Positions 3,392 to 58,586 of a DNA stretch of 64,000 nt are shown here, in pieces; positions within the stretch are counted from its first letter, which is position 1, and every line of letters begins with the position of its first letter. The notes below the pieces were generated by a model that saw only the letters and a list, made by a program, of their open reading frames with translations, was not told where the DNA came from and ran no database searches. Position numbers and translations under genes: made by a program. Source of the DNA: Bacteroidota bacterium (lineage in GTDB: Bacteria; Bacteroidota; Bacteroidia; 2-12-FULL-35-15); contig PLYN01000045.1 of the NCBI GenBank assembly GCA_003151815.1, positions 126,511-190,510 on the forward strand, read 5' to 3'.

Positions 3392-5722
3392 ATGCTTCCA
3401 TATCCTTTGGAGGAACGCTACAGTGAGGTAAAAAAATCAATAATGACACATTCTAAAAAAACAAAAATCGAACTTTATGCTGAAGTAAAAAAGCTTCAGC
3501 ATAAAATTGAATTGTTGGAGAATAGAAAAGATACTAAAATAAAAAAACAAGAACCAAGGATTTTAAAAAATGCTGATTTAATGTCATTTTTAAATCATTC
3601 GAAAAATTCTATTGTATTAATAGATATAAATGGAAATATTCTGGATGTAAACAAAGTGGGGAAAACATTTCAAAAAGAAAATATAATCGGATCCAATGTT
3701 TTTTTATTTATTACAGAGGAATCGAAAAAGATAGTCAAAGAAGCCATTGCCAGTGTTTTTAAAACTCAGAAACCTGAAATTTATGGAAGTTCCATAATGA
3801 CAAAAGAGGCTGGGTTAATTTATTTTTCAAGTGTAATTACACCTATAATTGAAAACAAACAAGTAATTGCAGCCCTAATTGAGGCAGAGGATATTACCGA
3901 AGAAATTAAAATTCATAATAAACTAAAAGATAGCGAAGCAAAGTTTAGAAAACTTGCACAAAATGCAACGGATATTATATTCAGATATTCAGTTTATCCG
4001 GAGCGTAAACTGGAATACATGAGTCCTTCATTTGAAAAAATTACGGGTTATTCATTGGAAGAATTTTATAAGGATCCTCATCTTGGATTTAAAATTATTC
4101 ACCCCGATGATTTGCATATAATTGAAACACTCCAAAAACAAAATCCCACGGAAACTGCTGCCGCCAATTATAAAAATAATTCACGCGTTTTACGCTGGAT
4201 CAGGAAAGATGGCCGTATTATTTGGACAGAGACAATCGATACCCCCATATTGGATAAGGAAGATAAATTAATTGCCGTTGAAGGTATATCTAGAGACATT
4301 ACCGAACGTAAATTGTATGAACAAAAATTAATTGAGAGTGAAAATAGATTTAAAGAATTAATTGAAGGAAGTACCGAATTAATACAAAGTGTGGGAATTG
4401 ATGGAAAGTTTTTATACGTCAATAAAATATGGAAGGAAACTCTTGGTTATACCGATGATGAAGTTGTTAAATTTGAATTATTCGACATTATGGATGAAGA
4501 ATTTTTGGATCAGTGTAAAGCGGAATTAGAAGAAGTGTTGAATGGAAAAACTCTAAAAAATATTCAAGTTGTATTTAAATCAAAAACAGGGCAAAAAATA
4601 TTTTTAGAAGGGAATGTAATTCCACGTTATTTGAATGGGAAAGTTATAGGTACTCAAGCCTTTTTTGAGAATATAGCGGATCGTATAAAAATGGAAGTTT
4701 TGGTTAAAGCTAAAGAACAAAACACATTGCTCGCAAGACATGCCGAACTTGTACCTGGTTTGATTTTCCAATATCAGATTTTTCCTGATGGAAGATTTAT
4801 GTTCCCGTTTGCCAGTAAAAAGATTTGGGATATTTTTGAAGTAACACCCGAAGAAGTGAAGAAAGATGCCTCATTGGCATTTAGCAGATTGCATTTAGAT
4901 GATAGTGAAAATGTAGTGCTTTCTATCAAACAGTCAATGAAAACATTAAAAGAATGGAGTTCTGAATTTAGAGTAAATCTTCCCGGTAGAGGAACTATAT
5001 GGATAAGTGGGCACGCTAAACCGGAGAAGTTATCAGATGGAAGTTTAATATGGCATGGATATATTTCTGACATTACTGAAGCAAAAATAGTCACCGAACA
5101 AATTAATCAATCCTTGCAGGAAAAAGAGATATTGCTGAAAGAGGTGCACCATCGTGTAAAAAACAATTTGCAGGTAATATCAAGCATATTAAATCTTCAG
5201 TCATCCTATGTGAAGGACGAGGCAACACTAAATGTTTTAAGAGAGAGCCAAAATCGAATTAAATCAATGGCTTTTATTCATGAAAGTCTTTATCAAGCGG
5301 ATAATTTTTCAAACATCAACTTTTCTGATTATGTAGTAAATTTATTGCAAAATTTAATGCAATCATATTCCAAATTAAATCAAACGGTAAAATTAAATGT
5401 TGATCTTCAAACTGTTTTTCTTAATTTAGACACAGCAATTCCATGCGGATTAATTATTAACGAAATTATTTCAAACGCATTAAAATATGCTTTTGCAGAT
5501 AACAAAGAAGGCGATGAGATAACAATAATGATGAAAATGGAAGGCAAAAATATAAAACTTGCAGTTGGAGATAATGGAGTTGGTTTACCACAAAATATAG
5601 ATTATAGAAATACTGAGTCGTTGGGATTACAATTAGTCGTAACTTTGGTGGGTCAATTAAATGGAAGCGTAGCATTAGATAATACAAACGGAACAAAATA
5701 TACTATTCAATTCGCAAAGTAA
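3392..5722 (+). CDS. Cytoplasmic multi-PAS sensor histidine kinase (HisKA_2/HWE-type dimerisation domain + HATPase_c)
   Basis: No TM segment; several PAS-like blocks; HisKA_2 signature EVHHRVKNNLQVISSILNLQ; G-box DNGVGLP near the C-terminus. The start may instead be the internal Met at about 3443. Confidence 0.8.
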   Translation: MLPYPLEERYSEVKKSIMTHSKKTKIELYAEVKKLQHKIELLENRKDTKIKKQEPRILKNADLMSFLNHSKNSIVLIDINGNILDVNKVGKTFQKENIIGSNVFLFITEESKKIVKEAIASVFKTQKPEIYGSSIMTKEAGLIYFSSVITPIIENKQVIAALIEAEDITEEIKIHNKLKDSEAKFRKLAQNATDIIFRYSVYPERKLEYMSPSFEKITGYSLEEFYKDPHLGFKIIHPDDLHIIETLQKQNPTETAAANYKNNSRVLRWIRKDGRIIWTETIDTPILDKEDKLIAVEGISRDITERKLYEQKLIESENRFKELIEGSTELIQSVGIDGKFLYVNKIWKETLGYTDDEVVKFELFDIMDEEFLDQCKAELEEVLNGKTLKNIQVVFKSKTGQKIFLEGNVIPRYLNGKVIGTQAFFENIADRIKMEVLVKAKEQNTLLARHAELVPGLIFQYQIFPDGRFMFPFASKKIWDIFEVTPEEVKKDASLAFSRLHLDDSENVVLSIKQSMKTLKEWSSEFRVNLPGRGTIWISGHAKPEKLSDGSLIWHGYISDITEAKIVTEQINQSLQEKEILLKEVHHRVKNNLQVISSILNLQSSYVKDEATLNVLRESQNRIKSMAFIHESLYQADNFSNINFSDYVVNLLQNLMQSYSKLNQTVKLNVDLQTVFLNLDTAIPCGLIINEIISNALKYAFADNKEGDEITIMMKMEGKNIKLAVGDNGVGLPQNIDYRNTESLGLQLVVTLVGQLNGSVALDNTNGTKYTIQFAK

Positions 5723-5726
5723 AAAA

Positions 5727-5795
5727 TAGTTGTTAGTTGTTAGTTATTAGAACACACTAACAACTAACAACTAACAACTAATCACTAACAACTAA
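5727..5795. repeat. Heptad-repeat palindrome (TAGTTGT/ACAACTA units, stem of about 19-24 bp) between the kinase and response-regulator genes
   Basis: tagttgttagttgttagttattag ... ctaacaactaacaactaacaacta read directly. Flanked by A-runs, not T-runs, on the + strand. Confidence 0.5.
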
Positions 5796-5802
5796 AAAAA
5801 AC

Positions 5803-6555
5803 ATGTCAAAAATAAGTGTACTGATAGTAGAAGACGAAAGCATTGTTGCGAAAGATATTCAACATAGTTTAAAAAAACTCGGATACAATGTTTTAGGAAT
5901 ATGTTCCTCCGGTGAAGATGCCATCAAATTAGTAGAAGAACTAGGTCCGGATATTGTATTAATGGATATTATGTTAAAAGGTACAATGAATGGTATTGAG
6001 GCTGCTGCACAAATACGTGAAACTAATAATATACCGGTTATTTTCCTTACTGCTTACGCTGACGAAAATACATTAAGCAAAGCAAAAGTGTCAGAACCCT
6101 TTGGTTATATTATCAAGCCCTTCAAGGAAATTGATTTACACACGTCAATTGAAATGGCCATTTATAAACATGAAAAAGAAAGCAATCTTAAAAAAGAACG
6201 TGACTTTTTGTATTCAATAGTTGAAAACAAAGAGTTTAAAGATATTCTTTTTGTGAAATCAAATTCTAAATTGGTTAAAGTAAAAACAAGCGACATATTT
6301 TATGTAGAGGCACTAAAGGATTATGTAGTGGTAAATACTGCAACTACCCGTTATACGATACATTCAACAATGAAAGACATCGAAAAGAAATTACCTGCAA
6401 GTGATTTTGTTCGTGTGCACCGATCATTTATTGTCCGCATCGATAAAATTGTAGCCATCGAACAACCGAACTTAATTTTGGAAGACGATAAAAAATTGAT
6501 TCCGCTGGGTGGTTCTTATAAAGATGCATTAACAAAAAGGCTGAACCTATTATAG
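5803..6555 (+). CDS. LytTR-family two-component response regulator (REC + LytTR DNA-binding domain)
   Basis: REC motifs (VLIVEDE, phospho-acceptor region IVLMDIML, KP motif) and a C-terminal LytTR domain (FVRVHRSFIVRIDKI). Confidence 0.85.
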   Translation: MSKISVLIVEDESIVAKDIQHSLKKLGYNVLGICSSGEDAIKLVEELGPDIVLMDIMLKGTMNGIEAAAQIRETNNIPVIFLTAYADENTLSKAKVSEPFGYIIKPFKEIDLHTSIEMAIYKHEKESNLKKERDFLYSIVENKEFKDILFVKSNSKLVKVKTSDIFYVEALKDYVVVNTATTRYTIHSTMKDIEKKLPASDFVRVHRSFIVRIDKIVAIEQPNLILEDDKKLIPLGGSYKDALTKRLNLL

Positions 6556-7084: not shown

Positions 7085-9448
7085 TCATATCTCAAATCCC
7101 CAATCATCATCGAAATTTTTACCGGGAGATAGTGGTTTTTTAGGCGTTTCTTTTTCTTTAGCAGGATCTGTTTTTTTATTCTCTGCATTTTTTGCAGTTG
7201 CAGATTTCATTGCTTCCTTAAAATTTTTTTTCTGCTCGGGGCGTTCTTTGTTTGTTGATTTGTCGGATGCATTTTTGTTTGTTTCGGTCACTTCAACCAA
7301 TGCGAAATCAAGTTGTTTTTTAACCAGATCGGCACGTTTTATTTCAATTCTAACAGTGTCGCCAAGCGATAATACCTTGCCGGATCTGCGACCGCGCAGA
7401 CAATAATTGTCTTCATCAAAAATATAATTATCATCACGTAATTCACGTATACGAACCATTCCTTCGCAATGGTTTTCAATAATCTCTACAAATATTCCCC
7501 ATTCGGTAACACCCGATATGATACCGTCAAATTCCTGTCCGATTTTATCTGTTAAAAATTGTACTTGTTTATATTTAATGGAAGCACGTTCCGCATCGGA
7601 AGCTAATTTTTCCATGTCGGAAGAATGCTTGCACTGCTCTTCTAATTTATCAATATCAGGGCTTTGTCCGCCATCCAGATAATGTTGTAATAAACGGTGT
7701 ACCATCACATCCGGATACCTCCGGATAGGGGAAGTGAAGTGTGTGTAATATTCGAAACCCAGACCATAATGCCCAATATTTTTGGTAGTATATATTGCTT
7801 TCGCCATTGTACGAATAGCAAGCATCTCGATCATTCCGGCTTCTTTTTTCTCACTTACTTCCTTCAATAAATTATTCATTGAATCGGCAACAGCCTTCTC
7901 ATTTTTTATATTTAATTTATAACCAAACTTTCCAACAAACTCAGCAAAACTAGCCAGTTTATCAGGATTGGGTTTATCATGGATACGGTAAACAAATGCT
8001 CGTTTTCCGTCTTTTAATTTTTGATTACTCTCTTTCGACTTTTTTTCCTTGCCAATAAATTCAGCTACTTTACGGTTAGCCAATAACATGAAATCTTCTA
8101 TCAGTTGGTTGGAGTCTTTGGCTGTTTTAAAAAACACACCAGTTGGATTGCCGGCTTCATCCAAATGAAATTTCACTTCTGCCTTTTCAAATGCAATACT
8201 ACCGGTTCTAAATCGATTGGCTCGTAATATTTTTGCTAAACGATTTAAGGTTAAAATTTCATTATCATAGTCGCCTTCTTCAGTTTCAATAACTTGTTGA
8301 GCTTCTTCATAAGTAAATCGTTTGTTGGAATTAATGATGGTTCTTCCGAACCATTCATTCACCACTTCGGCTTCATCAGTGATTTCAAAAACCGCAGAAA
8401 AACATAATTTTTCTTCATTAGGGCGGAGGGAACATACATTGTTTGAAAGCACTTCCGGCAACATGGGTACAACTCTGTCAACTAAATATACGGACGTTGC
8501 GCGTGAAATAGCTTCCTGGTCAATCATTGACCCCGATTTTATATAATGGCTAACATCGGCAATGTGTATACCAATTTCCCAGTTTCCGTTTTTTAATTTT
8601 TGTATGGACAGGGCATCATCAAAATCTTTTGCATCAACAGGGTCGATCGTGAAAGTTGTGATTTTACGGAAGTCGCGCCTCTTCGCAATTTCTTCTTTAG
8701 TAATAGTGATGGGAATCAGATCGGCAGCACGTTCTACATCTTTAGGGAATTCATAAGGCAAGCCAAATTCAGCAAGTATGGCATGCATTTCCGTATTGTT
8801 TTCGCCCACATCGCCCAGCACTTCAATGATCTCACCAATGGGGTTCACACCATTTTTAGGCCACTCTATAATTTTTGCAATGGCTTTTTGTCCGTTTTTG
8901 GCTCCATTCAATTTATCAAGAGGAATATATATGTCAACATGAACTTTGTTGTTGCTGGGAACTAAAAATGCAAATCGTGCCGATAGCTGAATAACACCCA
9001 CAAATTTAATTTTTGCCCTTTCAATAACCTCTATTATTTCACCTTCCTTTTTATCTTTTTGTGTCGGGAACAAACGAACTTTTACCAAATCGCCATGCAT
9101 GGCATTAAGCGTATTTTTTGGTGTAACCACAACATCATTCTCGGTTTCTTCCGAAACGATATAAGCTGTTCCGGCACTCGTCATATCCACTTTTCCGATG
9201 ATGATTTTTTCTTCCAGTTTCATTTTGAATTTTCCACGCTCCGGTTCTGAAACCGAACCTTTTGATTTCAATTCCGACAAAATATCATTTATTAACAATC
9301 GTTGGGATTGATCGGTTACCTGCAGTTCAGCGGCAATTTGCTTATAGTTGAGTGCTCTTTGTGAATTTTTGGATAATACCCTTAAAATTTCTTCGAAAAA
9401 GAAAGCTTTACCCTTTCCTTGTCCTTTTTTTCTGGTGTTTTTTGTCAT
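7085..9448 (-). CDS. rnr: Ribonuclease R (RNB catalytic domain + S1 domain, Lys-rich C-terminal tail)
   Basis: RNB motifs (FTIDPVDAKDFDDALS; HYGLGFEYYTHFTSPIRRYPD), a C-terminal S1-like region and a K-rich tail. Confidence 0.9.
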   Translation of the reverse strand: MTKNTRKKGQGKGKAFFFEEILRVLSKNSQRALNYKQIAAELQVTDQSQRLLINDILSELKSKGSVSEPERGKFKMKLEEKIIIGKVDMTSAGTAYIVSEETENDVVVTPKNTLNAMHGDLVKVRLFPTQKDKKEGEIIEVIERAKIKFVGVIQLSARFAFLVPSNNKVHVDIYIPLDKLNGAKNGQKAIAKIIEWPKNGVNPIGEIIEVLGDVGENNTEMHAILAEFGLPYEFPKDVERAADLIPITITKEEIAKRRDFRKITTFTIDPVDAKDFDDALSIQKLKNGNWEIGIHIADVSHYIKSGSMIDQEAISRATSVYLVDRVVPMLPEVLSNNVCSLRPNEEKLCFSAVFEITDEAEVVNEWFGRTIINSNKRFTYEEAQQVIETEEGDYDNEILTLNRLAKILRANRFRTGSIAFEKAEVKFHLDEAGNPTGVFFKTAKDSNQLIEDFMLLANRKVAEFIGKEKKSKESNQKLKDGKRAFVYRIHDKPNPDKLASFAEFVGKFGYKLNIKNEKAVADSMNNLLKEVSEKKEAGMIEMLAIRTMAKAIYTTKNIGHYGLGFEYYTHFTSPIRRYPDVMVHRLLQHYLDGGQSPDIDKLEEQCKHSSDMEKLASDAERASIKYKQVQFLTDKIGQEFDGIISGVTEWGIFVEIIENHCEGMVRIRELRDDNYIFDEDNYCLRGRRSGKVLSLGDTVRIEIKRADLVKKQLDFALVEVTETNKNASDKSTNKERPEQKKNFKEAMKSATAKNAENKKTDPAKEKETPKKPLSPGKNFDDDWGFEI

Positions 9449-9574
9449 ATACCAAAGGTACTGATTTATAAGAAATTTTTAAGGTTATTTAATAAAAAAT
9501 AAAAAAAGCTTTTGGGATGCAACTAATTAGTGCAACTTTGCATCTTAATAAAAATCAATACGACGAAGTAACCA

Positions 9575-10102
9575 ATGACCGATGAGCAAATTGTAGATGG
9601 TTGCATTAAAAAAAATGCCATTGCTCAGAAATATTTATATGATAAATTTTCCCGTAAAATGATGGGCGTATGCCTACGTTATTGCGATAGTGAACAAGAA
9701 GCAGAGGATGTATTGCAAAATGGATTCATTACTGTATTCGGTAATTTAGAATCATATAAAGGAACAGGTTCTTTTGAAGGTTGGATCAGAAAAATAATGG
9801 TAAACACTGCGCTTACCAATATTAGAAAAAATAAAAAATTCAAACAAAACATTGCATTGGATAGCGTGGAGTTCATGATTCCGGCAACAAACCATACAGG
9901 TGATAATTTTGCAGCTCAGGATTTGTTAAAAATAATACAACAATTACCAACAGGAAGTAGAACAGTTTTTAATTTATATGCAATAGAAGGCTATTCCCAC
10001 AATGAAATAGCGGAGATGTTAAATATTTCAGAAGGCACATCTAAATCGCAATATTCAAGAGCAAGGGCATATTTACAAAAAGTAATACCATCAGATAGAT
10101 AA
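9575..10102 (+). CDS. RNA polymerase ECF-type sigma-70 factor
   Basis: Sigma-70 region 2 (YLYDKFSRKMMGVCLRYCDSEQEAEDVLQNGFITVF) and region 4 HTH (YSHNEIAEMLNISEGTSKSQYSRA). Confidence 0.85.
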   Translation: MTDEQIVDGCIKKNAIAQKYLYDKFSRKMMGVCLRYCDSEQEAEDVLQNGFITVFGNLESYKGTGSFEGWIRKIMVNTALTNIRKNKKFKQNIALDSVEFMIPATNHTGDNFAAQDLLKIIQQLPTGSRTVFNLYAIEGYSHNEIAEMLNISEGTSKSQYSRARAYLQKVIPSDR

Positions 10103-10106
10103 GGAA

Positions 10107-11132
10107 ATGAAAGAAAATGATATTGATGATTTATTTAAAAAATCGTTCGACAACTTTGAAGCCAAAGTAAAACCGAGCGTTTGGAAAAATATTCAAGTTG
10201 GATTAAAATGGGGCGGAGCCGGGCTGGTGGTTAAATTTATCTTAAATAAGATAGGTGCCAACACTGTTGTTGCTGTCCTTTCATCTGCAGCTACTGTAAT
10301 TAGTACCGTAATGGTGATGAATTGGACCCATGGCAATGCTGACAAAACTCCTTTAGAAGTAAATAAAACCCAAACCGAATCAATAGCTACTGTTGAAAAA
10401 TCTGCCCATATAATTAATTCTGATGCCACAGAACCAATCAAACCAATTGCTGAAGAACAAAAAATAGAAAATGTAAAAACACTTTTAACGAATGAAGTTA
10501 AGGTAGATAAACACGAACAAAAAACCGAATCTCAACCGGAAACAGATGCTGTTGAATATGTTAAAGCAGACCATCAAAAAATGAAATCGGTTATTACAAC
10601 CTTTTCCGAACAATCAATTGCCTCTATTTCTGCAAGTCCTGTAGGTGGTTCAGTTCCTTTAATTGTCAATCTGATGAATACCGGAAATGGCAGTACCAAT
10701 AAGTGGACATACAGTGATGGAAAAAAAGAGAACAATAGTTCGAACCCTGTTCATGTATTTGAAGCACCGGGTATTTATTCAATAACACTTACTTCAACAA
10801 ATGCTGAAGGGAAAACTGCAGTTGATAGCATACGAATTGAAGTTACAGGAAATTCATCCATATCATCTATTCCAACTTTGTTTTCACCAAATGGCGATGG
10901 AATAGCGGATGTATTTACTTTTCAAAGTAAAAATATGATCAATATGAAGGTTGAAATTTTCGATAAAAAAGGAATCATATTTTACAAATGGCTTGGTAAT
11001 GGCGGTAAATGGGATGGAAGAAATCTGAAAGGTGAAAAAGCCAAAGAAGGTACTTATTTTTATATTATAAGCGCCGAAGGTGTTGATGGTAAAAAGTACG
11101 AACAAAAAGGAGCAATAAACCTAGCCAGATAA
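10107..11132 (+). CDS. Membrane-anchored protein with a PKD domain and a T9SS type B (CHU_C/gliding-motility-associated) C-terminal sorting domain; sits in the anti-sigma position 4 bp after the ECF sigma gene
   Basis: Short N-terminal region then a hydrophobic segment (GAGLVVKFILNKIGANTVVAVLSSAATVISTVMVM). PKD-like block (PVHVFEAPGIYSITLTSTNAEGK). C-terminus FSPNGDGIADVFTF...WDGRNLKGEKAKEGTYFYIISAEG...AINLAR matches the type B sorting domain. Confidence 0.6.
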   Translation: MKENDIDDLFKKSFDNFEAKVKPSVWKNIQVGLKWGGAGLVVKFILNKIGANTVVAVLSSAATVISTVMVMNWTHGNADKTPLEVNKTQTESIATVEKSAHIINSDATEPIKPIAEEQKIENVKTLLTNEVKVDKHEQKTESQPETDAVEYVKADHQKMKSVITTFSEQSIASISASPVGGSVPLIVNLMNTGNGSTNKWTYSDGKKENNSSNPVHVFEAPGIYSITLTSTNAEGKTAVDSIRIEVTGNSSISSIPTLFSPNGDGIADVFTFQSKNMINMKVEIFDKKGIIFYKWLGNGGKWDGRNLKGEKAKEGTYFYIISAEGVDGKKYEQKGAINLAR

Positions 11133-11233
11133 AATTTTAAATTTCATACTGATTAGTGCAAATGATGCACAGAGTTTCCCCACATAAAATAGACAAAATA
11201 TTTTTTTGTTTGAACATCAACTAAACTATTCCT

Positions 11234-11262
11234 TTTGGTCAGGATTTGTAATCCTGACCAAA
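11234..11262. repeat. Dispersed palindromic element TTTGGTCAGGATTTGTAATCCTGACCAAA (copy 1 of 2; see 36652)
   Basis: Perfect 13-bp arms. A 29/30-identical copy lies at 36653-36681. Confidence 0.6.
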
Positions 11263-11332
11263 GAATAATTCATTCCCTCTCTCTAAATTAAGTAATTTTT
11301 AACCCCTCCCTGTATGGAAAAATCCATTATAT

Positions 11333-12229
11333 TTGCCTTCCGTTGTAAAAAACACAATAAACACACTAAAAGATAGTTACTTAGGCTTGAAAAAATATTT
11401 TTTTATATTTACAATTACCTTACTTCCTACACTTACAGGATTCGCCCAACGCACTCAAAAAAGCAGCGAAATTGGCTTGTTTCTGGGTGGTTGCTATTAT
11501 ATCGGGGACATAAACCCAAATGGACATTTTAGTCAATTTACAAAACCTGCCGGCGGGATTGTCTATCGTTATAATTTTAACCCTCGTTTTGCCGCACGTG
11601 CCAATGCATTGTATGGGCATTATGAGGCGCATGATTCATATTCTAAATCCGCATATCAAAGACAACGTAACTTAAGCGTAAAATCTGAAGTTATCGAGGT
11701 ATCTGCTCAATTCGAATTTAATTTTCAGAATTACGAGATAGGCAAAGATAAATCAATGCTTTCTCCTTACATTTTTATGGGGCTTGGTGGTTTTTATTTT
11801 AATCCTCAAGGGCAGCTTGGCAATGATTGGGTTGATCTTCGTCCTCTGCATACCGAAGGACAAGGACTCGCAGGATCAGCAACAAAAAGCCAGTATAAAC
11901 AACTTCAAATTTCCATTCCTATGGGCGTTGGTGTTAAAGCTGTTTTTTCTAAAGGACTTGGTATTGGTTTTGAATGGGGGATGCGTAAAACATTTACCGA
12001 TTATCTGGATGATGTAAGTAGACGATATTATGATCCTAATTTACTGGCTGCTCAAAAAGGTGCGACGGCCGCTCTAATGTCGGACCCCAGTATTGGAACT
12101 GATCCTAATCACACCAATGTTGGAAAGATGAGGGGAAATTCAACAACAAAAGATTGGTATAATTTTTTTGGAATAGTATTAACAATAAAAATAAATCGAA
12201 AGGCTGACCTCTGTCCTGTTGCGTATTGA
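11333..12229 (+). CDS. Outer-membrane beta-barrel protein (DUF6089-like)
   Basis: Signal peptide ...FIFTITLLPTLTGFAQ. Alternating hydrophobic beta-strand patterns and a Gly-rich motif GIGFEWGMRKTF. The true start is probably an internal TTG/ATG downstream of 11333. Confidence 0.45.
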   Translation: MPSVVKNTINTLKDSYLGLKKYFFIFTITLLPTLTGFAQRTQKSSEIGLFLGGCYYIGDINPNGHFSQFTKPAGGIVYRYNFNPRFAARANALYGHYEAHDSYSKSAYQRQRNLSVKSEVIEVSAQFEFNFQNYEIGKDKSMLSPYIFMGLGGFYFNPQGQLGNDWVDLRPLHTEGQGLAGSATKSQYKQLQISIPMGVGVKAVFSKGLGIGFEWGMRKTFTDYLDDVSRRYYDPNLLAAQKGATAALMSDPSIGTDPNHTNVGKMRGNSTTKDWYNFFGIVLTIKINRKADLCPVAY

Positions 12230-39615: not shown

Positions 39616-40584
39616 TTATTCCTTCTTTTCGAGATCCATCCGAATTCGATAAGCCAAGCCAATATTAATGACCGGATAATTTTTTATTGGGCCATAAACA
39701 GGGTTATTCACCGTTTCCAATTCTTTCGTGTTATATTTATACTGTAAGGGATTTTTTCCAAGGCTATACCCAAGTTCAGCAAACAATAATATTTTTTTAT
39801 ATACAAAATAATCTACAAATAATTTTAATTGTATCTCATTGTAACGCACATAATCATACCCTTCTAATTTAGATAATCGAAAAGAACGTGTAAAAGATCT
39901 TAAACCAAAGCCCGTGTATAACTTATTTTTTATAGCATTAATTTCTATTCTATAATTTGTTGGCAAAACGCCATACATATTAATTCTATCATTTATTCTC
40001 CAATCTACTCCAACTAGCGGTATAAAAAAATTACCAAAATATTCGCGATTATAATATAAACCTGCCTTTATTTTGAGCTTTTCGTTAGGTATATATGTTT
40101 GTAAAAATACTCCTCCATATTGATAATCGTGCTTGTCAATAACATCTTTAAAATCCGATGAAAGCTTTTGAAGAGACATCACCACAGTATTCCATTTTTT
40201 ATTTGTTGAAACAAATCTAAAACCAATCGGTAATGTTAACATATATAATTTTGATGAATAAGCCAAGTCAGACATAATTGACGAATTCATCATTTCACTG
40301 TTTAATCCCAACAATAAAACATTACCGTTTTTATACTGTTTGGGTAAAAATAAATTGAAAAAATAATCATCTGTTTTATTTTTTGATTTTGCATTATCTT
40401 TATATTGAGAGGAAAATGTTTGATAGCTAAAACTAGTTACATCAATAAAAGGTTGAGAGAATCCTTTGAAAGTGATCATAAAAAAAAGAGGAAATAAAAC
40501 GAGGAGGGGACGAAAAATTTGATTATTTAAAAAACTCGGCTTATTAAAATTAACAATGCTTTTGAGTAAATTCAGAACATTCAT
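39616..40584 (-). CDS. Hypothetical membrane / outer-membrane beta-barrel-like protein downstream of the PorP/SprF gene
   Basis: Hydrophobic N-terminus (RPLLVLFPLFFMITFKGFSQ), Tyr/Gly-rich alternating patterns, no recognisable catalytic motif. Confidence 0.35.
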   Translation of the reverse strand: MNVLNLLKSIVNFNKPSFLNNQIFRPLLVLFPLFFMITFKGFSQPFIDVTSFSYQTFSSQYKDNAKSKNKTDDYFFNLFLPKQYKNGNVLLLGLNSEMMNSSIMSDLAYSSKLYMLTLPIGFRFVSTNKKWNTVVMSLQKLSSDFKDVIDKHDYQYGGVFLQTYIPNEKLKIKAGLYYNREYFGNFFIPLVGVDWRINDRINMYGVLPTNYRIEINAIKNKLYTGFGLRSFTRSFRLSKLEGYDYVRYNEIQLKLFVDYFVYKKILLFAELGYSLGKNPLQYKYNTKELETVNNPVYGPIKNYPVINIGLAYRIRMDLEKKE

Positions 40585-40657
40585 TTTAAAAAATATTTTT
40601 ATAAAAAAAATCCCCCCTACAATTCCTAGGGAGGATTTTAAATTTTTCTTGACTAAA

Positions 40658-41620
40658 CTAATTTGTTATTATAACAATAGGTTCTGCCTTAGGAACCACT
40701 TTGTGGAATTTAATACCGATCATTAATTCATGCGTTCCGGAACTGTATCTTCTAATGTTGCTGGTAGTAAAATCGTATGAATAAGCAAAAGAAATATTTT
40801 CCTGAAACTTATACCCAAACATTGCCGAAACAGCATCCAAATAACGGTACATTGTACCTATCCATATTTTATCATGATAAATTGCCCGTAAACCTAAATT
40901 AAATGTTATAGGAGTCGGATTTGCATATTGAATGCAAGCAGAAGGTTCTAATACAAAATCTGAGTTCAACTTATATTTATATCCAGTTGTAAAATAATAA
41001 TGTCTTGCCAATGTACTTAAAGATGACGTAGAAATGTTAACAAAATTTATTTTACTCTGAAACATTTGAGGAACACTTGCTCCAACATACCATTTGTGAT
41101 CTGTTGAATAGGCATAAATTCCTGCACCGAAATCGGGTGCAATAACAGATTGAAGACCATTGGTAATCACTATATCTGAAGGATCCCGCAAAGCGATTTG
41201 TGAGCCATCCACCGAAAATTGCACGACACCTCCTGATAAACCCAAAGAGACTTTAACTTTTTCGGCAACTCTGATTTGATAGGCATAAGAAAAAGACATA
41301 CCAATTCTCCTAGTTGGACCCACTATATCGGTATATATTGAACCTCCTAGTCCCATATTTAAAGATTTGGTTGGACCTTGCGCAGTTAATATATATGTTC
41401 GTGGTGCGTCAGTAAGTCCGACCCATTGATAACGATTATTTGATATCCCTTCGAAATAGGAAGTAGTTCCGGCAACAGCAGGATTCATCGCAAAATTATT
41501 AAGCATATAATTACTGTATTGAGGTAACTGTTGCGCGTTAACCTGAATAGCTATAAAAATTAACAATACGATGGAAAGAATGCTTTTCCGTGATAACATA
41601 TCAATATCAGTTTTTGTCAA
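40658..41620 (-). CDS. PorP/SprF-family type IX secretion system membrane protein
   Basis: Hallmark N-terminus after the signal peptide: AQQLPQYSNYMLNNFAMNPAVAG; about 320 aa. Sits immediately downstream of the type B sorting-domain adhesin. Confidence 0.8.
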   Translation of the reverse strand: MTKTDIDMLSRKSILSIVLLIFIAIQVNAQQLPQYSNYMLNNFAMNPAVAGTTSYFEGISNNRYQWVGLTDAPRTYILTAQGPTKSLNMGLGGSIYTDIVGPTRRIGMSFSYAYQIRVAEKVKVSLGLSGGVVQFSVDGSQIALRDPSDIVITNGLQSVIAPDFGAGIYAYSTDHKWYVGASVPQMFQSKINFVNISTSSLSTLARHYYFTTGYKYKLNSDFVLEPSACIQYANPTPITFNLGLRAIYHDKIWIGTMYRYLDAVSAMFGYKFQENISFAYSYDFTTSNIRRYSSGTHELMIGIKFHKVVPKAEPIVIITN

Positions 41621-41668
41621 TTCTAAATTGTATTAAAAAAATTCACTTAAATTATAATATAACACCCA

Positions 41669-44600
41669 TTATCTCATAATAGTAACCGGACCAGTATATG
41701 CATCAGGAAACGCAGGATCATTTAAAATAATTATATAATAATAGGTTCCAACAGGCAAAGGTTTACCTTTAAAATTACCATCCCATTTTTCTGTGTATCC
41801 CGGAGACCTGAATACTAACTCACCCCATCTATTATAAATTTCCACATTATTATTAGGGTAAGAATCCAAGAAATCAACTATCCATGTATCATTTACTCCA
41901 TCACTATTTGGTGTAAATCCTCCAGGAGGTGCGAATTGAGGAAGTATTTTTACTAATACCGAATCAGTTGCTTTACAACTACCTAAGGTAACAATTACTG
42001 TATAAACGGTTGTACTTGTTGGCTTCGTAACCGGATTGGCATAAGTGTTATCAATAAATCCTGCCGAAGGATTCCAAATATAATGTGAACCTGCAATACC
42101 TGTTGGGCTGCCACCAAGTGTAATGCTTGCACCGGAAATAATGCTAATGTCAGCTCCCGCATTTGCAGTAGCTTTAGGTTCTACCGAAATGTTGTAGCTG
42201 GAAACGGAACCAACACAGCCATTTAAGGTAGATGTAACAGTTATAAGTCCCGATAGGGTGGATGCTGTATTATTTGTACCGGTAAAACCGGGAACATTTC
42301 CTACTCCATTTGCAGCTAATCCAATTGCCGGATTGGAATTTGTCCAGGTATAAGTTGGAATATTAACAAAAGATGTTGTTACAACTGCATCACCATCGCA
42401 AACATCTGTATTGGCAGGAACTGTAAAGCTTGGAAACATTGTTATTATAACGATACTCGAATCTTTGATCAAAGTACCTGAACAATCATAAGTGTTGTAA
42501 ACCATATATGTTCCTTGAGCACTTGCTGTAAGATCAATTAATCCGGTGAAAGGATCTGAAAAAACCAAACCTGCCGATGACGTAAAAACTCCAGGGAAGG
42601 ATCCTGCAGGGAATGTAGGAGAAGCGTTGGGTGTTGAACTTTGACAATATGGTCCGGCATAGCTAAAGGATGCAGTTGGACTTGGTAAATTGGTAATATT
42701 AACAACAAAAGTACCGGTATTAGGACAAGTACCGCCAACATTAGTATAACTTATGGTATACGTACCAACGTTACTTATGCTTAAATTTATTTGACCTGTT
42801 GAAACAGATACAAAAACGATGCCTGCCGGAGAAGCACTAAATACCCCACCTGAAACACCTGTTATAGTCGGCGTTGGATTTAATATTGCTCCTTGACAAA
42901 AAGATGAGTATGAATAATTAAATGAGGCATCTTCTGCAGGATTAATTGTAACAGTATTAGTGGAAGGAGTAGCACCATTACAACCAAGCGTATTGGTTAT
43001 AGTATAGATTCCTACTGTGGATACTGAAAGATCAATTAATCCGGTAAATTTATTTGCAAATACCAAACCTGCTGGGGCAGAAAAAACTCCGGCACTCGCT
43101 CCAAGTGCTGGAATAAAAGTTGGACTTGGATCAGCAACATTCTTGCAATAAGGACCGGCATAACTAAAACCAGTGCCTGGAGGACTGGAGTTTGTTATAG
43201 TAACACCAAAAGTACTCGAAGTAGGACAAGCACCGTTAGTGGTATATGTTATAGCATAAGGTGAGCCTATATTTAAAGTACTTGCTAATAAATTTATTTG
43301 ACCTGTTACTGCATTAAAAACGATTCCTGATGTAGCAGAACTAAATGTTCCACCTGCTAATCCTGCAATTGTTGGACTTGGATCTATACCTGATTGGCAG
43401 AAAGTAGAGGATGAATAATTAAATGAGGCATCGTCCACAGCGTTAATGGTAACAGTATTAGTGAACGTGAAAACTCCGCCTGCCGCACATTTTGGAATAG
43501 TATTAGTTACAGTATAGGTTCCGGCCGCACTTGCTGTAAGATCAATTAAACCGGTGAATTTATTTGCAAACACCAAACCTCCCGTGGGTTCTGTAAAAAC
43601 ACCGGCACTCGATCCAACAACCGTGAAAGTCGGAGTTGGATTAGGAGTACTATTTTTGCAATATGCAGCAATTGGATAACTAAAATTAGGTACCGGAGGA
43701 TTAGAAACAGTAACACCAAAAATGGTTGAGTCGGGACAAGTACCATTCGTAACGTATTTTACTGAATATACTTTTAGAGCGCTTGCGCTCAAATTAATTT
43801 CACCTGTTGAAGTAGATACAAAAACAAGACCTACTGGAGACGAGCTAAACGTTCCACCTGCTTTGGCGATAAATGTTGGAGTAGGATTAATACCAGTTTT
43901 GCAAAAAGTAGAAGATAAATAATTAAATGTAGCATCGTCTATTGGGTTTATTGTTACTGAACTGAATTTCACAAAAGGTGCGCCTCCTATAGAACATGGT
44001 GGAATAGTATTGGTAACAGTATAGGTTCCAGGAGAACTTGCGGTTAAATCAATTTCACCGGTAAATTTATTAGCAAAAACTAAACCCGGGGTAGTCGTAA
44101 AAACGCCGGCACTTGATCCCCCAACAAAACCTGGAAATGGATTGGCGCTGTTTTGACAAAACGGATCCGAATAAATGAAATTCGCCTTGGGTGAATTTGT
44201 AATAGTAAGCCCAAAAGTGCTTGAATCCGGACAAGTACCGCTAGTAACATATTTCACAGTATAAACTGTGGCAGTACTTGCACTCAAATTAATTTCACCT
44301 GTCGAAGTAGATATAAAAACAAGACCTGCCGGGGTAGCGCTAAATATTCCGCCTGCTGTGGCTATGAATGTTGGAATTGTTGGATTAGGATCTGTTTTAC
44401 AAAAAGTAGAAGATGAATAATTAAATGAAGGATCGTCAAAAGGGTCTACGGTAACAGTTGCTGTAATTGCTGTCCCCGCACATCCATTCGCAGAAGGAGT
44501 AATGGTGTAAACTGCATTGCCTGATGTTAGCCCTGTTAATGTTAAGACTTGATCAATAAAACTTGAATTAATGGTATCAAAAGCCCCACTTACACCATTT

Positions 44601-56600: not shown

Positions 56601-58586
56601 TCCCTGACCGGCAGTATTCGTACCAGCAACTGATAAACCAGCAGTAAACTCCCCAGCAGCTCCACCACCGGAACCTCCGGCACCAGCTGTATTTGAACCA
56701 TTAGGATTATTATAACTTCCCCCACGACCACCGCCATTTGCCGTAATCAATGCTCCAAATGTTGTATTTGAGCCCACAAAGCCTGCATTAGCATTAGCAC
56801 CGGCTGCGCCACCGGTACCAATAGTTATTGCATAAGTAGTATTAGCTGCAACTGCTTGACTTGCATTATGAACCAAACCACCGGCACCTCCTCCACCACC
56901 GCCATTTCCACCACCACCACCACCACCGGCAACTGCTAATACCTCTATATTGCCGCTAAAACCTGCCGGGGTTATAAAATTTCCATTTCCTGTAAAAGTA
57001 TGCGTACGATATCCACCTGAAGTAGTACCACCTGCAGGAGGAGTACTTGCCAATGTTGTTGTACTACCAATACATACAGAGGTGGTACCTGTAATAGAAG
57101 CGGGAGTGGGCGGTAAAGTAGATGACACTTCTAATATACGAGTAGGAGTAGTACAAGCACCAACAACTGCGTAAACACTGACATTTCCATTTTGACCTGC
57201 AGTACCTACGGTTGATACTGTCATTGAATTGGTTGCTCCACCAGCCTGCGTCCATCCTGTAGGAACTGTCCAAGTATAAGTAGGACCTCCGGCAACTGCA
57301 GTAATACTATATGCTTGAGTCACTGCACCGGGACATTGCTGAACAGTTCCGGTTATAGCACTCAGTGTGGCAGGCGCTGTAGTTATGGTTACCGTTACGT
57401 CAAACCTTGTTGTACTTTCACAACCACTAACCGTTTGGGTTGCATAATAATGAGTTGCAGTAACCAAAGCGGTGCTAGTTGCTAATGCTGTACCTCCACT
57501 TGATGCGGCATACCATTGTATTGCTGTTCCTGTTGCTGTTAAGCTTGCTACGGTTGGACTCGAACTACTACAAAAGCTTTGAGAAGCACTACCTGTGGGT
57601 GCTGCCGGTGGACTGACTACTGTCCAGGTAATTACTACATAGCCATCTTTACCATTGACAGAAGTACAAGTACTGTTAATCGTTCCACCAGTAGCATTAC
57701 CAGCAGCACCTCCAGCATTACCGGGTACTGTACCAGCACCATTTGTTATTGTATTAGCTGTTCCTGCATTCGTTGAGCTGGATCCACCAGCACCACCACC
57801 ACCGCCAGTACCATTATTGACACCACCATTACCACCAAGGGCACCACCACCACCTCCTCCACCACCACCATTAGTACCGGAAGCTCCCCCATTTGCTCCT
57901 ATACCTGTACCTGTATTTCCTGAACCACCAGCGCCCCCACTATTACTACCATTAACACCACCACCACCACCAGCGCCACCAACGCTACTAACACTACCAC
58001 CACCACCACCACCACCACCAGCTATAGCAAGTGTTGTACTTGTGGTTGAATTTAAAACATAAGAAGCGCCACCACCACCCCCACCTGCGCCAGCTTGAGA
58101 AGCAGTTGCTGCTCCTCCGCCCCCTCCTGCATGGGTTGCGTTTCCATATCCGGAGCCGCCAGCACCAACACAAGCACCACCGCAGCAACCATTCCCACCA
58201 TGTCCACCAACAACAACTGTTAAAACATCAGCAGGGCTTACTGCATAAGTAGCTGTTGCATAAGCTCCACCACCACCGCTACCACCTGCTTTACTATTAC
58301 TTCCACCATCACCACCCGCACCACCACCGGCACCCCAACATTTAACAACTATTGAAGTAACACCACAAGGAACAGTAAATGATTGAGTACCGCCTGTATA
58401 AGAAAAATTAGTAGTTTGTGCAAATAATTTATTGGGTAGGATTGCCGCAAGAAGAACCACAATGCAAAAAAGGAAGGATGAAATTATTTTTTTACCCGTA
58501 TTCGAACGCAACAAAGAAGCACCAGAGGCCTTCTCCTTCTTGCTTTTTGAAACATCTAAAAACTTATTTGGGTAAGATTTTATCAT
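50679..58586 (-). CDS. Giant (2635 aa) secreted multi-domain protein: two glycine-rich (PF12810/ALK-GRD-like) domains, many Ig-like/PKD-like modules, T9SS type A (Por_Secre_tail) C-terminal sorting domain
   Basis: Gly-rich domains at about aa 61-325 (DNA about 57610-58410) and aa 524-785 (about 56230-57020), starting with F-x-Y/H-T-G...F-x-V/T-P...GV and ending [12 protein letters not shown]-terminus ...[59 protein letters not shown] matches type A. The start codon is uncertain (long leader before the hydrophobic core). Confidence 0.7.

What the first reader, a model, noticed from the sequence alone, without database searches (positions are those of the whole stretch)
9500..12229. ECF sigma factor operon in which the anti-sigma position is occupied by a membrane-anchored PKD protein with a T9SS type B sorting domain, followed by a beta-barrel gene
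The gene 4 bp downstream of the ECF sigma factor has a short cytoplasmic N-terminus and a single hydrophobic anchor, as in anti-sigma factors. Its extracytoplasmic part, however, is a PKD domain plus a CHU_C/type B T9SS sorting domain, a signal normally found on secreted or surface-attached cargo. Type B cargo typically needs a cognate PorP/SprF-like outer-membrane partner encoded immediately downstream. Here the downstream gene is a DUF6089-like beta-barrel that could play that role. This would link sigma-factor release to T9SS export or shedding of the anti-sigma ectodomain, which as far as I know has not been described. Upstream of the sigma gene sits a palindromic element GATGCAA-CTAATTAG-TGCAACTTTGCATC (9517-9544) that could be its autoregulatory site.
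Basis: inference. Interest (0 to 1): 0.6.

Follow-up and report, generated by a model that had tools for sequence, protein, structure and literature searches.

The report
Anti-sigma factor carrying T9SS sorting domain
A stress-type sigma factor gene is paired with a membrane-anchored partner that looks like an anti-sigma factor but ends in a type IX secretion (T9SS) sorting signal; this widespread, undescribed design could tie gene regulation to that secretion system, while the barrel gene next door is an unrelated core secretion component, PorG.

Summary
The sequence features are real. Gene 9575-10102 is an ECF sigma factor. Gene 10107-11132 ("G2") has a conserved 35-residue N-terminus, one TM helix, a roughly 100-residue disordered tether, a PKD domain and a T9SS type B sorting domain (CTD).

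- **The pair is the unit.** A sigma gene sits directly upstream of G2 relatives in 59/59 genome loci and 11/11 distant metagenome loci.
- **The N-terminus matches an anti-sigma module.** It is homologous (hhalign 97%) to the N-terminus of sigma-adjacent proteins that end in an outer-membrane (OM) beta-barrel. That is the architecture of the Dma dual-membrane anti-sigma factors, whose first 40 residues bind their sigma.
- **The "palindrome" is a promoter.** It is the operon's ECF-type promoter, TGCAAC-N16-GCATCT, with fixed spacing in 57/57 loci. The inverted repeat itself is perfect in only 10/57.
- **The triad fails.** The downstream barrel is PorG, part of the usual porG-uppS-bamA cluster, and follows G2 in only 2/55 related loci. 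No PorP/SprF partner lies nearby.

Best reading: a Dma-like anti-sigma factor whose barrel is replaced by a T9SS sorting domain. This is a new variant of a known kind. Sigma binding and T9SS engagement are inferred, not shown.

The parts
9516..9547 (+). ECF-type promoter of the sigma/G2 operon. The -35 element TGCAAC(T) is at 9518-9524 and the -10 element GCATCT at 9540-9545, with 16 nt between TGCAAC and the hexamer.
   Evidence: TGCAAC-N18-RTC occurs at identical spacing upstream of the sigma gene in 57/57 loci with enough upstream sequence. This includes relatives at only 28-30% G2 identity. It is the only PWM hit of 10 or more, and the only exact core match, in the window. The 7-nt inverted repeat is perfect in only 10/57.
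9575..10102 (+). ECF sigma factor, 175 aa, with sigma-2 and sigma-4 domains only.
   Evidence: Pfam Sigma70_r2 and Sigma70_r4_2; TIGR02937 at 94.6 bits against a cut-off of 42.9. It is 48% identical (169-180 bits) to sigma factors encoded directly upstream of Dma-architecture beta-barrel proteins. The best solved ECF sigma scores 63 bits.
10107..10211 (+). G2 residues 1-35: conserved two-helix N-terminal module, the putative sigma-binding anti-sigma region.
   Evidence: F10, K11, F14, E18, W26, N28 and K34 are invariant across 28 family members of 48-79% identity. AF2 models helices at 3-15 and 23-35. A profile search finds 437 representative clusters. hhalign against the N-termini of sigma-adjacent beta-barrel proteins gives 97.3% probability, E 2.2e-11. 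No Pfam family matches even at E<=1.
10218..10325 (+). G2 residues 38-73: amphipathic helix (38-48) followed by a single transmembrane helix (51-73).
   Evidence: Hydropathy profile and AF2 helices. K48, G50, S60 and T67 are invariant. This level of conservation is unlike a cleaved signal peptide.
10326..10625 (+). G2 residues 74-173: low-complexity, variable tether, with one predicted helix at 146-165.
   Evidence: This is the most variable part of the family alignment, with indels. pLDDT is 22-36, and AF2 predicts no regular structure except H146-165.
10626..10844 (+). G2 residues 174-246: PKD domain.
   Evidence: PKD_4 E 1.2e-9 and PKD E 4.7e-7. AF2 models a beta-sandwich with pLDDT 72-90.
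10869..11123 (+). G2 residues 255-339: T9SS type B C-terminal sorting domain (CHU_C / TIGR04131).
   Evidence: CHU_C scores 61.3 bits (cut-off 27), covering profile positions 3-85 of 86. TIGR04131 scores 40.0 bits (cut-off 35). It is 39% identical over 64 residues to the CTD of the canonical type B cargo in the same window. The PNGDG, WDG and DGK motifs are invariant.
11227..11267 (+). Stem-loop between G2 and porG, the likely 3' boundary of the sigma/G2 unit. It has no U-tract.
   Evidence: Folding energy -20.7 kcal/mol, z = -5.4, with 0 of 200 shuffles as stable. The consensus scan did not call it an intrinsic terminator.
11333..12229 (+). porG, a core T9SS outer-membrane barrel. It is a neighbour, not part of the sigma/G2 unit. 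The probable true start is TTG at 11387.
   Evidence: NCBIfam equivalog NF052316 T9SS_PorG scores 184.9 bits against a cut-off of 130, plus DUF6089. It is followed by uppS, bamA and two ompH genes. In P. gingivalis porG (pg0189) lies near bamA (pg0191) (PMC12365241). It follows G2 in only 2/55 related loci.

Best explanation
Genes 9575-10102 and 10107-11132 form a two-gene ECF sigma / anti-sigma unit. It is transcribed from its own ECF-type promoter (TGCAAC-N16-GCATCT, 9518-9545), so it is probably autoregulated.

G2 is a single-pass, N-in membrane protein. Its conserved roughly 35-residue N-terminal module holds the sigma factor at the inner membrane, as the first 40 residues of Dma1 hold Das1 in Bacteroides. 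A roughly 100-residue disordered tether crosses the periplasm. At its far end, in place of the Dma outer-membrane beta-barrel, sit a PKD domain and a T9SS type B sorting domain.

Proposed mechanism: the sorting domain docks the C-terminal end onto the T9SS at the outer membrane. The state of that connection (T9SS working or not, or a cue seen by the PKD domain) then controls regulated proteolysis of G2 and release of the sigma factor.

Shown here: the architecture, the strict pairing, the homology of the N-terminal module, the promoter, and the independence from porG.

Inferred: sigma binding (about 0.8), engagement of the T9SS (about 0.45), proteolytic release and the regulon (unknown).
For: (1) Pairing.
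- A sigma gene lies directly upstream of G2 relatives in 59/59 genome loci. The median gap is 5 nt, and some pairs overlap.
- The same holds in 11/11 distant metagenome loci and in 2/2 further contigs with unrelated neighbours.
- Of about 69 CHU_C proteins lacking the N-terminal motif, only 2 have a sigma gene directly upstream on the same strand.
- In most loci that lack a downstream CHU_C or porG gene, the next gene is convergent.

(2) The N-terminus is a functional module.
- It has invariant residues, while the tether varies.
- A profile search finds 437 clusters. Of 117 distant ones, 85 carry CHU_C and 3 carry an OM beta-barrel.

(3) Link to Dma.
- Two barrel-bearing motif proteins were looked up. 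Both lie directly downstream of ECF sigma genes, one after a 4-nt gap and one overlapping by 4 nt.
- Those sigma factors are 48% identical to this one.
- hhalign between the two N-terminal modules gives 97.3% probability, E 2e-11.
- Dma1(1:40) binds Das1 in pull-downs, and Dma proteins have the order N-terminal domain, TM, disordered tether, OM barrel (PMC10927553).

(4) The CTD is intact and cargo-like. The organism has a T9SS: porG, a PorP/SprF gene, and type A and type B cargo are all in the window.

(5) The promoter is conserved at fixed spacing in 57/57 loci.

(6) Precedent for a T9SS CTD acting as a periplasmic signal to an ECF sigma pathway: PorA CTD, PorY, PorX, SigP (PMC12152298).
Against: - No direct test of sigma binding was possible. 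The isolated N-terminus is modelled at low confidence, pLDDT 33-40.
- The N-terminus matches no curated anti-sigma family and no solved structure.
- Homology was shown to proteins with the Dma architecture, not to B. thetaiotaomicron Dma1 itself. ECF21 membership of the sigma factor was not tested. The two Dma-type loci examined do not show the same promoter motif.
- No PorP/SprF gene lies within 8 kb of G2 in 56/59 loci, whereas the canonical type B cargo in this window has one directly downstream.
- TIGR04131 passes only narrowly (40 against 35).
- In P. gingivalis, PorA variants kept on the inner membrane were not exported to the surface. An inner-membrane-tethered protein may therefore never pass the translocon.
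- No second promoter of this type was found in the window or in flanking DNA of related loci, so the regulon is unknown.
Confidence: 0.55

Rival explanations
1. G2 is an anti-sigma factor, but its PKD and CHU_C domains are only a periplasmic sensor module of Ig-like folds. The CTD never engages the T9SS. It binds some periplasmic ligand or protein, and the resemblance to a sorting signal reflects domain re-use.
For: - No cognate PorP/SprF gene lies near G2 in 56/59 loci.
- TIGR04131 scores barely above its cut-off.
- The Foldseek search returns only generic tandem Ig-like matches.
- Inner-membrane-tethered PorA is not exported yet still signals through its CTD in the periplasm.
Against: - The CTD matches the full length of both curated models and keeps the cargo-type motifs. 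It is 39% identical to a bona fide cargo CTD in the same genome.
- The N-terminal module is combined almost exclusively with two kinds of C-terminal module, both of them outer-membrane-targeting: CHU_C or an OM barrel.
- A long disordered tether is conserved as a feature in both.
Confidence: 0.27
2. Sigma, G2 and the DUF6089 barrel form one functional unit, with the barrel acting as the PorP/SprF-like outer-membrane partner of G2's type B CTD.
For: The three genes are adjacent and on the same strand in the window and in L005 and L032. The barrel is a T9SS component.
Against: - The barrel is the PorG equivalog, which binds PorK/N rings, not cargo. It gives no PorP/SprF hit, whereas a true PorP/SprF gene in the window scores 272.9 bits.
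- It belongs to the porG-uppS-bamA-ompH cluster; in P. gingivalis porG also lies near bamA.
- It follows G2 in only 2 of 55 loci.
- A stable hairpin and a TAnnTTTG element at 11328-11335 separate it from G2.
- It has no ECF-type promoter.
Confidence: 0.03
3. G2 is an ordinary secreted type B T9SS cargo. Its N-terminal hydrophobic segment is a cleaved signal peptide, and its position next to a sigma gene is incidental.
For: Sources annotate the family only as 'gliding motility-associated C-terminal domain-containing protein'. About half of related loci have large CHU_C cargo genes next door.
Against: - About 50 hydrophilic or amphipathic residues with invariant positions precede the TM core, and the TM itself is conserved.
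- Sigma adjacency is 59/59 and 11/11, against 2 of about 69 for motif-less CHU_C proteins.
- The N-terminus is homologous to that of sigma-adjacent barrel proteins.
Confidence: 0.03

Closest known systems
[quoted passage not shown]
   Same: - Restricted to Bacteroidota.
- The gene lies directly downstream of an ECF sigma gene.
- A short (about 40-residue) N-terminal region comes before a single TM helix, followed by a long disordered periplasmic tether and an outer-membrane-directed C-terminal module.
- The N-terminal motif of G2 is homologous to that of proteins with this architecture, and the sigma factors are 48% identical.
   Different: - The defining C-terminal 8-stranded OM beta-barrel is absent. 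A PKD domain and a T9SS type B sorting domain take its place, which implies a different route to the outer membrane (T9SS rather than BAM).
- The two Dma-type loci examined lack the TGCAAC-N16-GCRTCT promoter.
PorA - PorXY - SigP signalling in Porphyromonas gingivalis (PMC7712824, PMC12152298)
   Same: A T9SS C-terminal domain acts both as a secretion signal and as a periplasmic regulatory input that ends at an ECF sigma factor. An inner-membrane-tethered form still signals.
   Different: - PorA is a free type A CTD cargo that acts through a two-component system (PorY/PorX).
- There is no anti-sigma factor, and the CTD is not covalently linked to the regulator.
- The CTD type differs (A rather than B).
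Canonical type B T9SS cargo with an adjacent PorP/SprF gene (SprB/SprF type); example in this window at 40658-48718 (-)
   Same: Both carry a C-terminal CHU_C/TIGR04131 domain with the same motifs, 39% identical over 64 residues. Ig/PKD-like domains lie upstream of the CTD.
   Different: - G2 is small (341 aa).
- It has a conserved cytoplasmic module plus an uncleaved-looking TM anchor instead of a signal peptide.
- It has no adjacent PorP/SprF gene.
- It is always paired with a sigma gene.
FecI/FecR/FecA-type cell-surface signalling (from established knowledge; contrasted with Dma in PMC10927553)
   Same: An ECF sigma factor is controlled by a single-pass anti-sigma factor whose periplasmic part communicates with an outer-membrane machine.
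   Different: - FecR has a recognised, larger anti-sigma domain and a FecR periplasmic domain that contacts a TonB-dependent transducer.
- Here the N-terminal module is about 35 residues and matches no curated family.
- The presumed outer-membrane partner is the T9SS.

Membership tests
ECF (group IV) sigma-70 factors | Sigma-2 and sigma-4 domains only; passes the family HMM | tested here: met
   Sigma70_r2 and Sigma70_r4_2 are present, the protein is 175 aa, and TIGR02937 scores 94.6 bits against a cut-off of 42.9.
ECF21 sigma group (the group paired with Dma proteins) | Assignment by ECF-group HMM or phylogeny, or similarity to Das1/EcfO | tested here: inconclusive
   No ECF-group models or Das1 sequence were available. 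The only indirect evidence is 48% identity to sigma factors encoded upstream of Dma-architecture proteins. Their promoters look different.
Dma family | Encoded directly downstream of an ECF sigma gene | tested here: met
   A 4-nt gap in the window. The arrangement holds in 59/59, 11/11 and 2/2 related loci.
Dma family | Short N-terminal cytoplasmic region that binds the cognate sigma factor | tested here: inconclusive
   Sequence homology of the motif to Dma-architecture proteins is supported: hhalign 97.3% and a profile hit at E about 1e-6.
Dma family | Single TM helix followed by a long intrinsically disordered periplasmic tether | tested here: met
   Helix 51-73; residues 74-145 are disordered with pLDDT 22-30; the region is variable in the alignment.
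Dma family | C-terminal 8-stranded outer-membrane beta-barrel | tested here: not met
   The C-terminus is PKD plus CHU_C, modelled as beta-sandwiches, with no OMP_b-brl hit. G2 is therefore not a Dma member in the strict sense.
T9SS type B cargo | C-terminal type B sorting domain (TIGR04131 / CHU_C) above the curated cut-off | tested here: met
   TIGR04131 scores 40.0 against 35 and CHU_C 61.3 against 27, both over nearly the full model length.
T9SS type B cargo | Cleavable N-terminal Sec signal peptide, so the protein is free in the periplasm | tested here: not met
   About 50 conserved hydrophilic or amphipathic residues precede the hydrophobic core, and the TM is conserved. No dedicated signal-peptide predictor was available, so this rests on sequence pattern.
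T9SS type B cargo | Cognate PorP/SprF-family gene adjacent | tested here: not met
   A phmmer search with the window's own PorP/SprF finds none within 8 kb in 56/59 loci. The positive control at 40658-41620 scores 272.9 bits on TIGR03519.
Classical anti-sigma domains (zf-HC2, RskA, FecR and similar) | Match to a curated anti-sigma domain model | tested here: not met
   No Pfam family matches residues 1-80 at E<=1, no NCBIfam hit covers the N-terminus, and there is no PDB relative.
PorG (for gene 11333-12229) | Equivalog HMM above cut-off; conserved position next to bamA; C-terminal extension with a Cys | tested here: met
   NF052316 scores 184.9 against 130. The gene is followed by uppS, bamA and two ompH genes. 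In P. gingivalis porG pg0189 lies near bamA pg0191, and PorG Cys232 bonds PorK. Here a Cys lies 6 residues from the C-terminus.
PorP/SprF (for gene 11333-12229) | Match to PF11751 / TIGR03519 | tested here: not met
   Neither model appears among the hits for this protein at E<=0.1.

The most novel reading that the evidence does not exclude
A large Bacteroidota family of anti-sigma factors are themselves T9SS clients. The inner-membrane-anchored protein hands its type B sorting domain to the T9SS translocon or anchor, so one polypeptide bridges the cytoplasmic sigma factor and the secretion machine. The cell then reads out T9SS capacity, or a surface cue seen by the exported PKD domain, directly as sigma-factor release. 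This would be a second way, independent of beta-barrels, to build a dual-membrane-spanning signalling protein. It would also be the first direct anti-sigma link to the T9SS.
Probability: 0.3. Interest if true: 0.8.

Novelty: new variant of a known kind. Interest (0 to 1): 0.62.

Why it matters
How T9SS activity and cargo expression are regulated is known only for P. gingivalis (PorXY-SigP-PorA). In gliding and environmental Bacteroidota it is largely open.

This locus represents a family of several hundred 50%-identity clusters in which a T9SS sorting signal is fused to an anti-sigma module. Databases currently label the family only as "gliding motility-associated C-terminal domain" proteins.

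If the fusion works as proposed, it offers:
- a directly testable sensor of T9SS function;
- an extension of the recently discovered Dma principle (one protein reaching from cytoplasm to outer membrane) to a second export route;
- a new question: what does the T9SS do with a substrate that is still anchored in the inner membrane?

It also corrects annotation. The DUF6089 gene here is porG, and the upstream "palindrome" is an ECF promoter.

Tried and rejected
- **AF2 on a sigma-(G4S)6-G2(1-82) fusion** with a paired alignment from 22 loci, meant to test binding.
- **Search for regulon members.**
  - A PWM and a core-pattern scan for the promoter found only the sigma gene's own site in the window, with one-mismatch hits at chance level. 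In ±8 kb of 59 loci there were only a few weak extra hits, scoring 15-19.
  - Regions upstream of the downstream large CHU_C genes show a hairpin with a T-run and TAnnTTTG-like elements, not the ECF motif.
- **Reaching B. thetaiotaomicron Dma1** through a homologue search seeded with Dma-architecture proteins. This gave only 14 Saprospiraceae-like hits. The supplements of the Dma paper are not held.
- **Finding a cultured carrier.** Cluster look-up and a profile search returned only unnamed metagenome or MAG proteins.
- **Broad alignment A6** was too diverse for the metagenome scan. A narrower one, A7, worked.
- **Structural searches.** The PDB sequence search of the N-terminal profile gave only noise. 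The Foldseek search of the model gave generic tandem Ig folds.
- **The palindrome as an operator.** Rejected, because the arms are complementary in only 10/57 orthologous sites.
- **One wasted literature search**, 'CHU_C' plus 'sigma'.


Full report
**1. The observation**

- Gene 9575-10102 is a 175-aa ECF sigma factor. It has Sigma70_r2 and Sigma70_r4_2, and scores 94.6 bits on TIGR02937 against a cut-off of 42.9.
- After a 4-nt gap, gene 10107-11132 ("G2", 341 aa) carries a PKD domain (residues 174-246) and a C-terminal CHU_C domain (255-338; 61.3 bits, cut-off 27). The domain also passes the NCBIfam type B sorting-domain model TIGR04131, narrowly, at 40.0 against 35.
- Residues 1-35 of G2 are hydrophilic. 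A hydrophobic stretch follows, with its core at 51-73.
- An AlphaFold2 (AF2) model built on a 28-sequence family alignment gives short helices at 3-15 and 23-35, an amphipathic helix at 38-48 and a TM helix at 51-73. Residues 74-145 are disordered (pLDDT 22-30). Two confident beta-sandwich domains follow.
Its 7-nt arms are exact reverse complements.

**2. The third gene is PorG and is not part of the unit**

It also passes the NCBIfam equivalog for the core T9SS protein PorG, at 184.9 bits against a cut-off of 130. It gives no PorP/SprF hit.
- It is followed by uppS, bamA and two ompH genes. In P. gingivalis porG (pg0189) likewise lies near bamA (pg0191). PorG is an 8-stranded barrel that is disulfide-bonded to the PorK/N ring through a C-terminal Cys (PMC12365241). 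The window protein also has a Cys 6 residues from its C-terminus.
- A stable stem-loop lies between G2 and porG (-20.7 kcal/mol, z = -5.4). A TAnnTTTG element sits at 11328-11335, about 50 nt before the likely true start at TTG 11387.
- Among 55 related loci with enough downstream sequence, porG follows G2 in only 2. A large CHU_C protein follows in 26. Something else follows in 27, and in most of those the next gene is convergent.
- The window provides an internal control. A 2349-aa protein with a strong type B CTD (65.6 bits) is followed directly by a true PorP/SprF gene (TIGR03519, 272.9 bits) at 40658-48718 on the minus strand.
- No PorP/SprF gene lies within 8 kb of G2 in 56 of 59 loci.

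**3. The sigma/G2 pair is the conserved unit**

- G2 belongs to a family of at least 257 full-length relatives of 320-340 aa.
- A scan of one genome per species returned 59 loci with full-length relatives, all from uncultured Bacteroidota. Four of them are Flavobacteriales or Parvicella loci at only 28-30% identity.
- My ORF and phmmer analysis finds an ECF sigma gene directly upstream in 59/59. The median gap is 5 nt and some pairs overlap.
- RNase R is divergent upstream in most loci, but other neighbours vary.
- In a separate metagenome scan seeded with distant relatives, 11/11 proteins with the N-terminal motif plus CHU_C have a sigma gene directly upstream. Only 2 of about 69 CHU_C proteins without the motif do.
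- Two further distant members sit among unrelated housekeeping genes and are again preceded by a sigma gene.

**4. The N-terminus is a conserved module shared with Dma-type anti-sigma factors**

- Across family members of 48-79% identity, the first 73 residues have many invariant positions: F10, K11, F14, E18, W26, N28, K34, K48, G50, S60 and T67. The tether is variable and full of indels. This is the opposite of what a signal peptide shows.
- A profile of residues 1-80, searched against 1.84 billion representative proteins, found 437 clusters at E<=1e-3.
- Of 117 distant hits, 85 carry CHU_C and 48 carry PKD. Most of the rest are short fragments. Three carry an outer-membrane beta-barrel domain instead.
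- The barrel proteins are 480-612 aa and carry the motif 2-5 times before a TM helix. Two were looked up, and each lies immediately downstream of an ECF sigma gene, one after a 4-nt gap and one overlapping by 4 nt.
- Those two sigma factors are 48% identical to the window's sigma factor, at 169-180 bits. The best solved ECF sigma scores 63 bits.
- hhalign between the G2 N-terminal profile and the N-termini of these barrel proteins gives 97.3% probability, E 2.2e-11, over the 28-residue core D-x-(L/I)-F-(K/R)-x-S-F-x-N-(F/Y)-E-x-x-x-x-P-x-V-W-x-N-(I/V).
- This architecture matches the Dma family of Pardue et al. 2024 (PMC10927553). Dma proteins are found only in Bacteroidota and are encoded next to ECF21 sigma factors. 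They have an N-terminal sigma-binding region, a TM helix, a long disordered tether and an 8-stranded OM barrel. Dma1(1:40) was sufficient to pull down Das1, and the protein was shown to reach both membranes.
- The module matches no Pfam family and no solved structure.

**5. The "palindrome" is an ECF promoter**

- Upstream regions of the sigma genes align on TGCAAC, then 16 nt, then a hexamer NN(A/G)TCT. The consensus is GTGCAACC-N15-GCATCT. The spacing is identical in 57 of 57 loci with enough upstream sequence, including the most distant ones (GTGCAACC...TAGTCT).
- This is the usual ECF -35/-10 layout. The -35 resembles GGAAC and the -10 resembles CGTC, from general knowledge of ECF promoters.
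- The 7-nt inverted repeat is perfect in only 10/57 sites. The second TGCAAC copy in the spacer is present in 32/57. The promoter boxes explain the conservation, not the symmetry.
- The element is the only PWM hit, and the only exact core match, in the 64-kb window. One-mismatch hits occur at chance level.
- The unit is therefore probably autoregulated. No other regulon member was found in the DNA available.

**6. How it most likely works**

Shown:
- the architecture of G2;
- the obligate sigma pairing;
- the homology of the N-terminal module to that of Dma-architecture proteins;
- an intact cargo-type CTD, 39% identical to the CTD of the canonical cargo in the same genome;
- the presence of a T9SS in this organism.

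Inferred:
- The N-terminal module binds and sequesters the sigma factor (about 0.8).
- Topology is N-in and C-out. This is required because PKD and CTD domains are extracytoplasmic.
- The roughly 100-residue tether lets the C-terminal end reach the outer membrane.
- The CTD docks on T9SS components (about 0.45).
- Loss or change of that connection triggers regulated proteolysis and sigma release. Proteolytic fragments were seen for Dma1.

The main argument for an outer-membrane destination is that the module is combined almost only with two outer-membrane-targeting devices, a BAM-type barrel or a T9SS CTD. In both cases a long disordered tether is present.

The main arguments against are three. 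There is no PorP/SprF partner. The TIGR04131 score is marginal. In P. gingivalis, PorA kept on the inner membrane is not exported, though it still signals through its CTD in the periplasm. That last result supports the rival view that the CTD acts as a periplasmic signalling domain.

**7. Comparison and novelty**

- The closest known system is Dma/Das (Reo/EcfO). G2 fails one defining feature, the C-terminal barrel, so it is not a Dma member in the strict sense. It is a new variant of that kind.
- PorA-PorXY-SigP is the closest functional precedent for a T9SS CTD feeding into an ECF sigma factor. It acts through a two-component system with a free type A cargo.
- Literature searches combining anti-sigma, T9SS, type B and TIGR04131 found no description of an anti-sigma factor with a T9SS sorting domain. 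The Dma papers do not mention one either.
- Databases name the family only as gliding-motility-associated C-terminal domain proteins.

**8. Limits**

- There is no binding or localisation evidence.
- ECF21 membership was not tested, and no direct comparison with BT_4721 or BT_4720 was possible.
- The regulon is unknown.
- All carriers found are uncultured.
- Synteny calls rest on my own ORF finding and single-sequence or home-built HMM searches. These can miss divergent PorP/SprF or CHU_C genes.

Noticed in passing
window 39616-48718 (-): A canonical T9SS type B cargo gene (41669-48718, 2349 aa, TIGR04131 65.6 bits) is followed directly by a PorP/SprF gene (40658-41620, TIGR03519 272.9 bits). 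Next comes a 322-aa ORF with a weak DUF6268 match (39616-40584). I used the cargo/PorP pair as an internal control.
   Followed up: partly
window 50679-58586 (-): A 2635-aa protein with PKD-like, Ig_7, Gly_rich_2 and Big_2 domains and a type A T9SS CTD (Por_Secre_tail). The window therefore encodes both CTD classes.
   Followed up: no
proteins P0218, P0250 (2 copies), P0147 (4 copies), P0247 (5 copies); loci L083, L084: In proteins that end in a beta-barrel or a barrel-like C-terminus, the roughly 30-residue N-terminal motif is tandemly repeated 2-5 times before the TM helix. G2-type proteins mostly have one copy (two in P0165 and P0178). Whether several copies bind several sigma factors is unknown.
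   Followed up: partly
L006, L009, L012, L015, L016, L024-L026, L029, L030, L034-L036, L042-L046, L048, L050-L052, L054 and others: In 26 of 55 related loci the gene after G2 is an 1100-1400 aa CHU_C protein (SprB-repeat type in L001/L006), sometimes followed by a second one. They are separated from G2 by a hairpin with a T-run and TAnnTTTG-like elements, and they lack the ECF promoter. The association may be functional or only syntenic.
   Followed up: partly
L136 (940-2752), L163 (2237-4414): ECF sigma genes are followed directly by CHU_C proteins of 419 and 524 aa in which my N-terminal HMM finds no motif. These may be further diverged variants of the same design.
   Followed up: no
L085 (3231-3932), L166 (7316-7897): In two distant loci a second sigma-like gene (Sigma70_r4_2 in L166) lies directly downstream of the G2 homologue.
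   Followed up: no
window 11333-12229: The porG ORF as listed starts at TTG 11333. A start at TTG 11387 gives a typical signal peptide (MKKYFFIFTITLLPTLTGFAQ) and the 280-aa length seen in L005. A Cys lies 6 residues from the C-terminus, like the PorK-bonding Cys232 of P. gingivalis PorG.
   Followed up: partly
window 10275-10325 (G2 residues 57-73): The TM helix of the close family has invariant S60 (S59 nearly invariant), followed by two or three Ala in mid-membrane. This recalls the Ala-rich ends exposed by site-2 proteolysis of RsiW and RseA. That comparison is from memory and was not tested. The more distant CHU_C relatives do not keep it.
   Followed up: no
window 7085-9448 (-): RNase R is divergently transcribed from the sigma gene. 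This arrangement is conserved in most of the 59 related loci, with a roughly 115-nt shared intergenic region that holds the ECF promoter.
   Followed up: partly
window 3392-6555 (+): A PAS-rich HWE/HisKA_2 histidine kinase (3392-5722) and a LytTR response regulator (5803-6555) lie upstream of RNase R. Related loci L002 and L003 have a different kinase and regulator pair (CHASE3-HAMP) at the same position.
   Followed up: no
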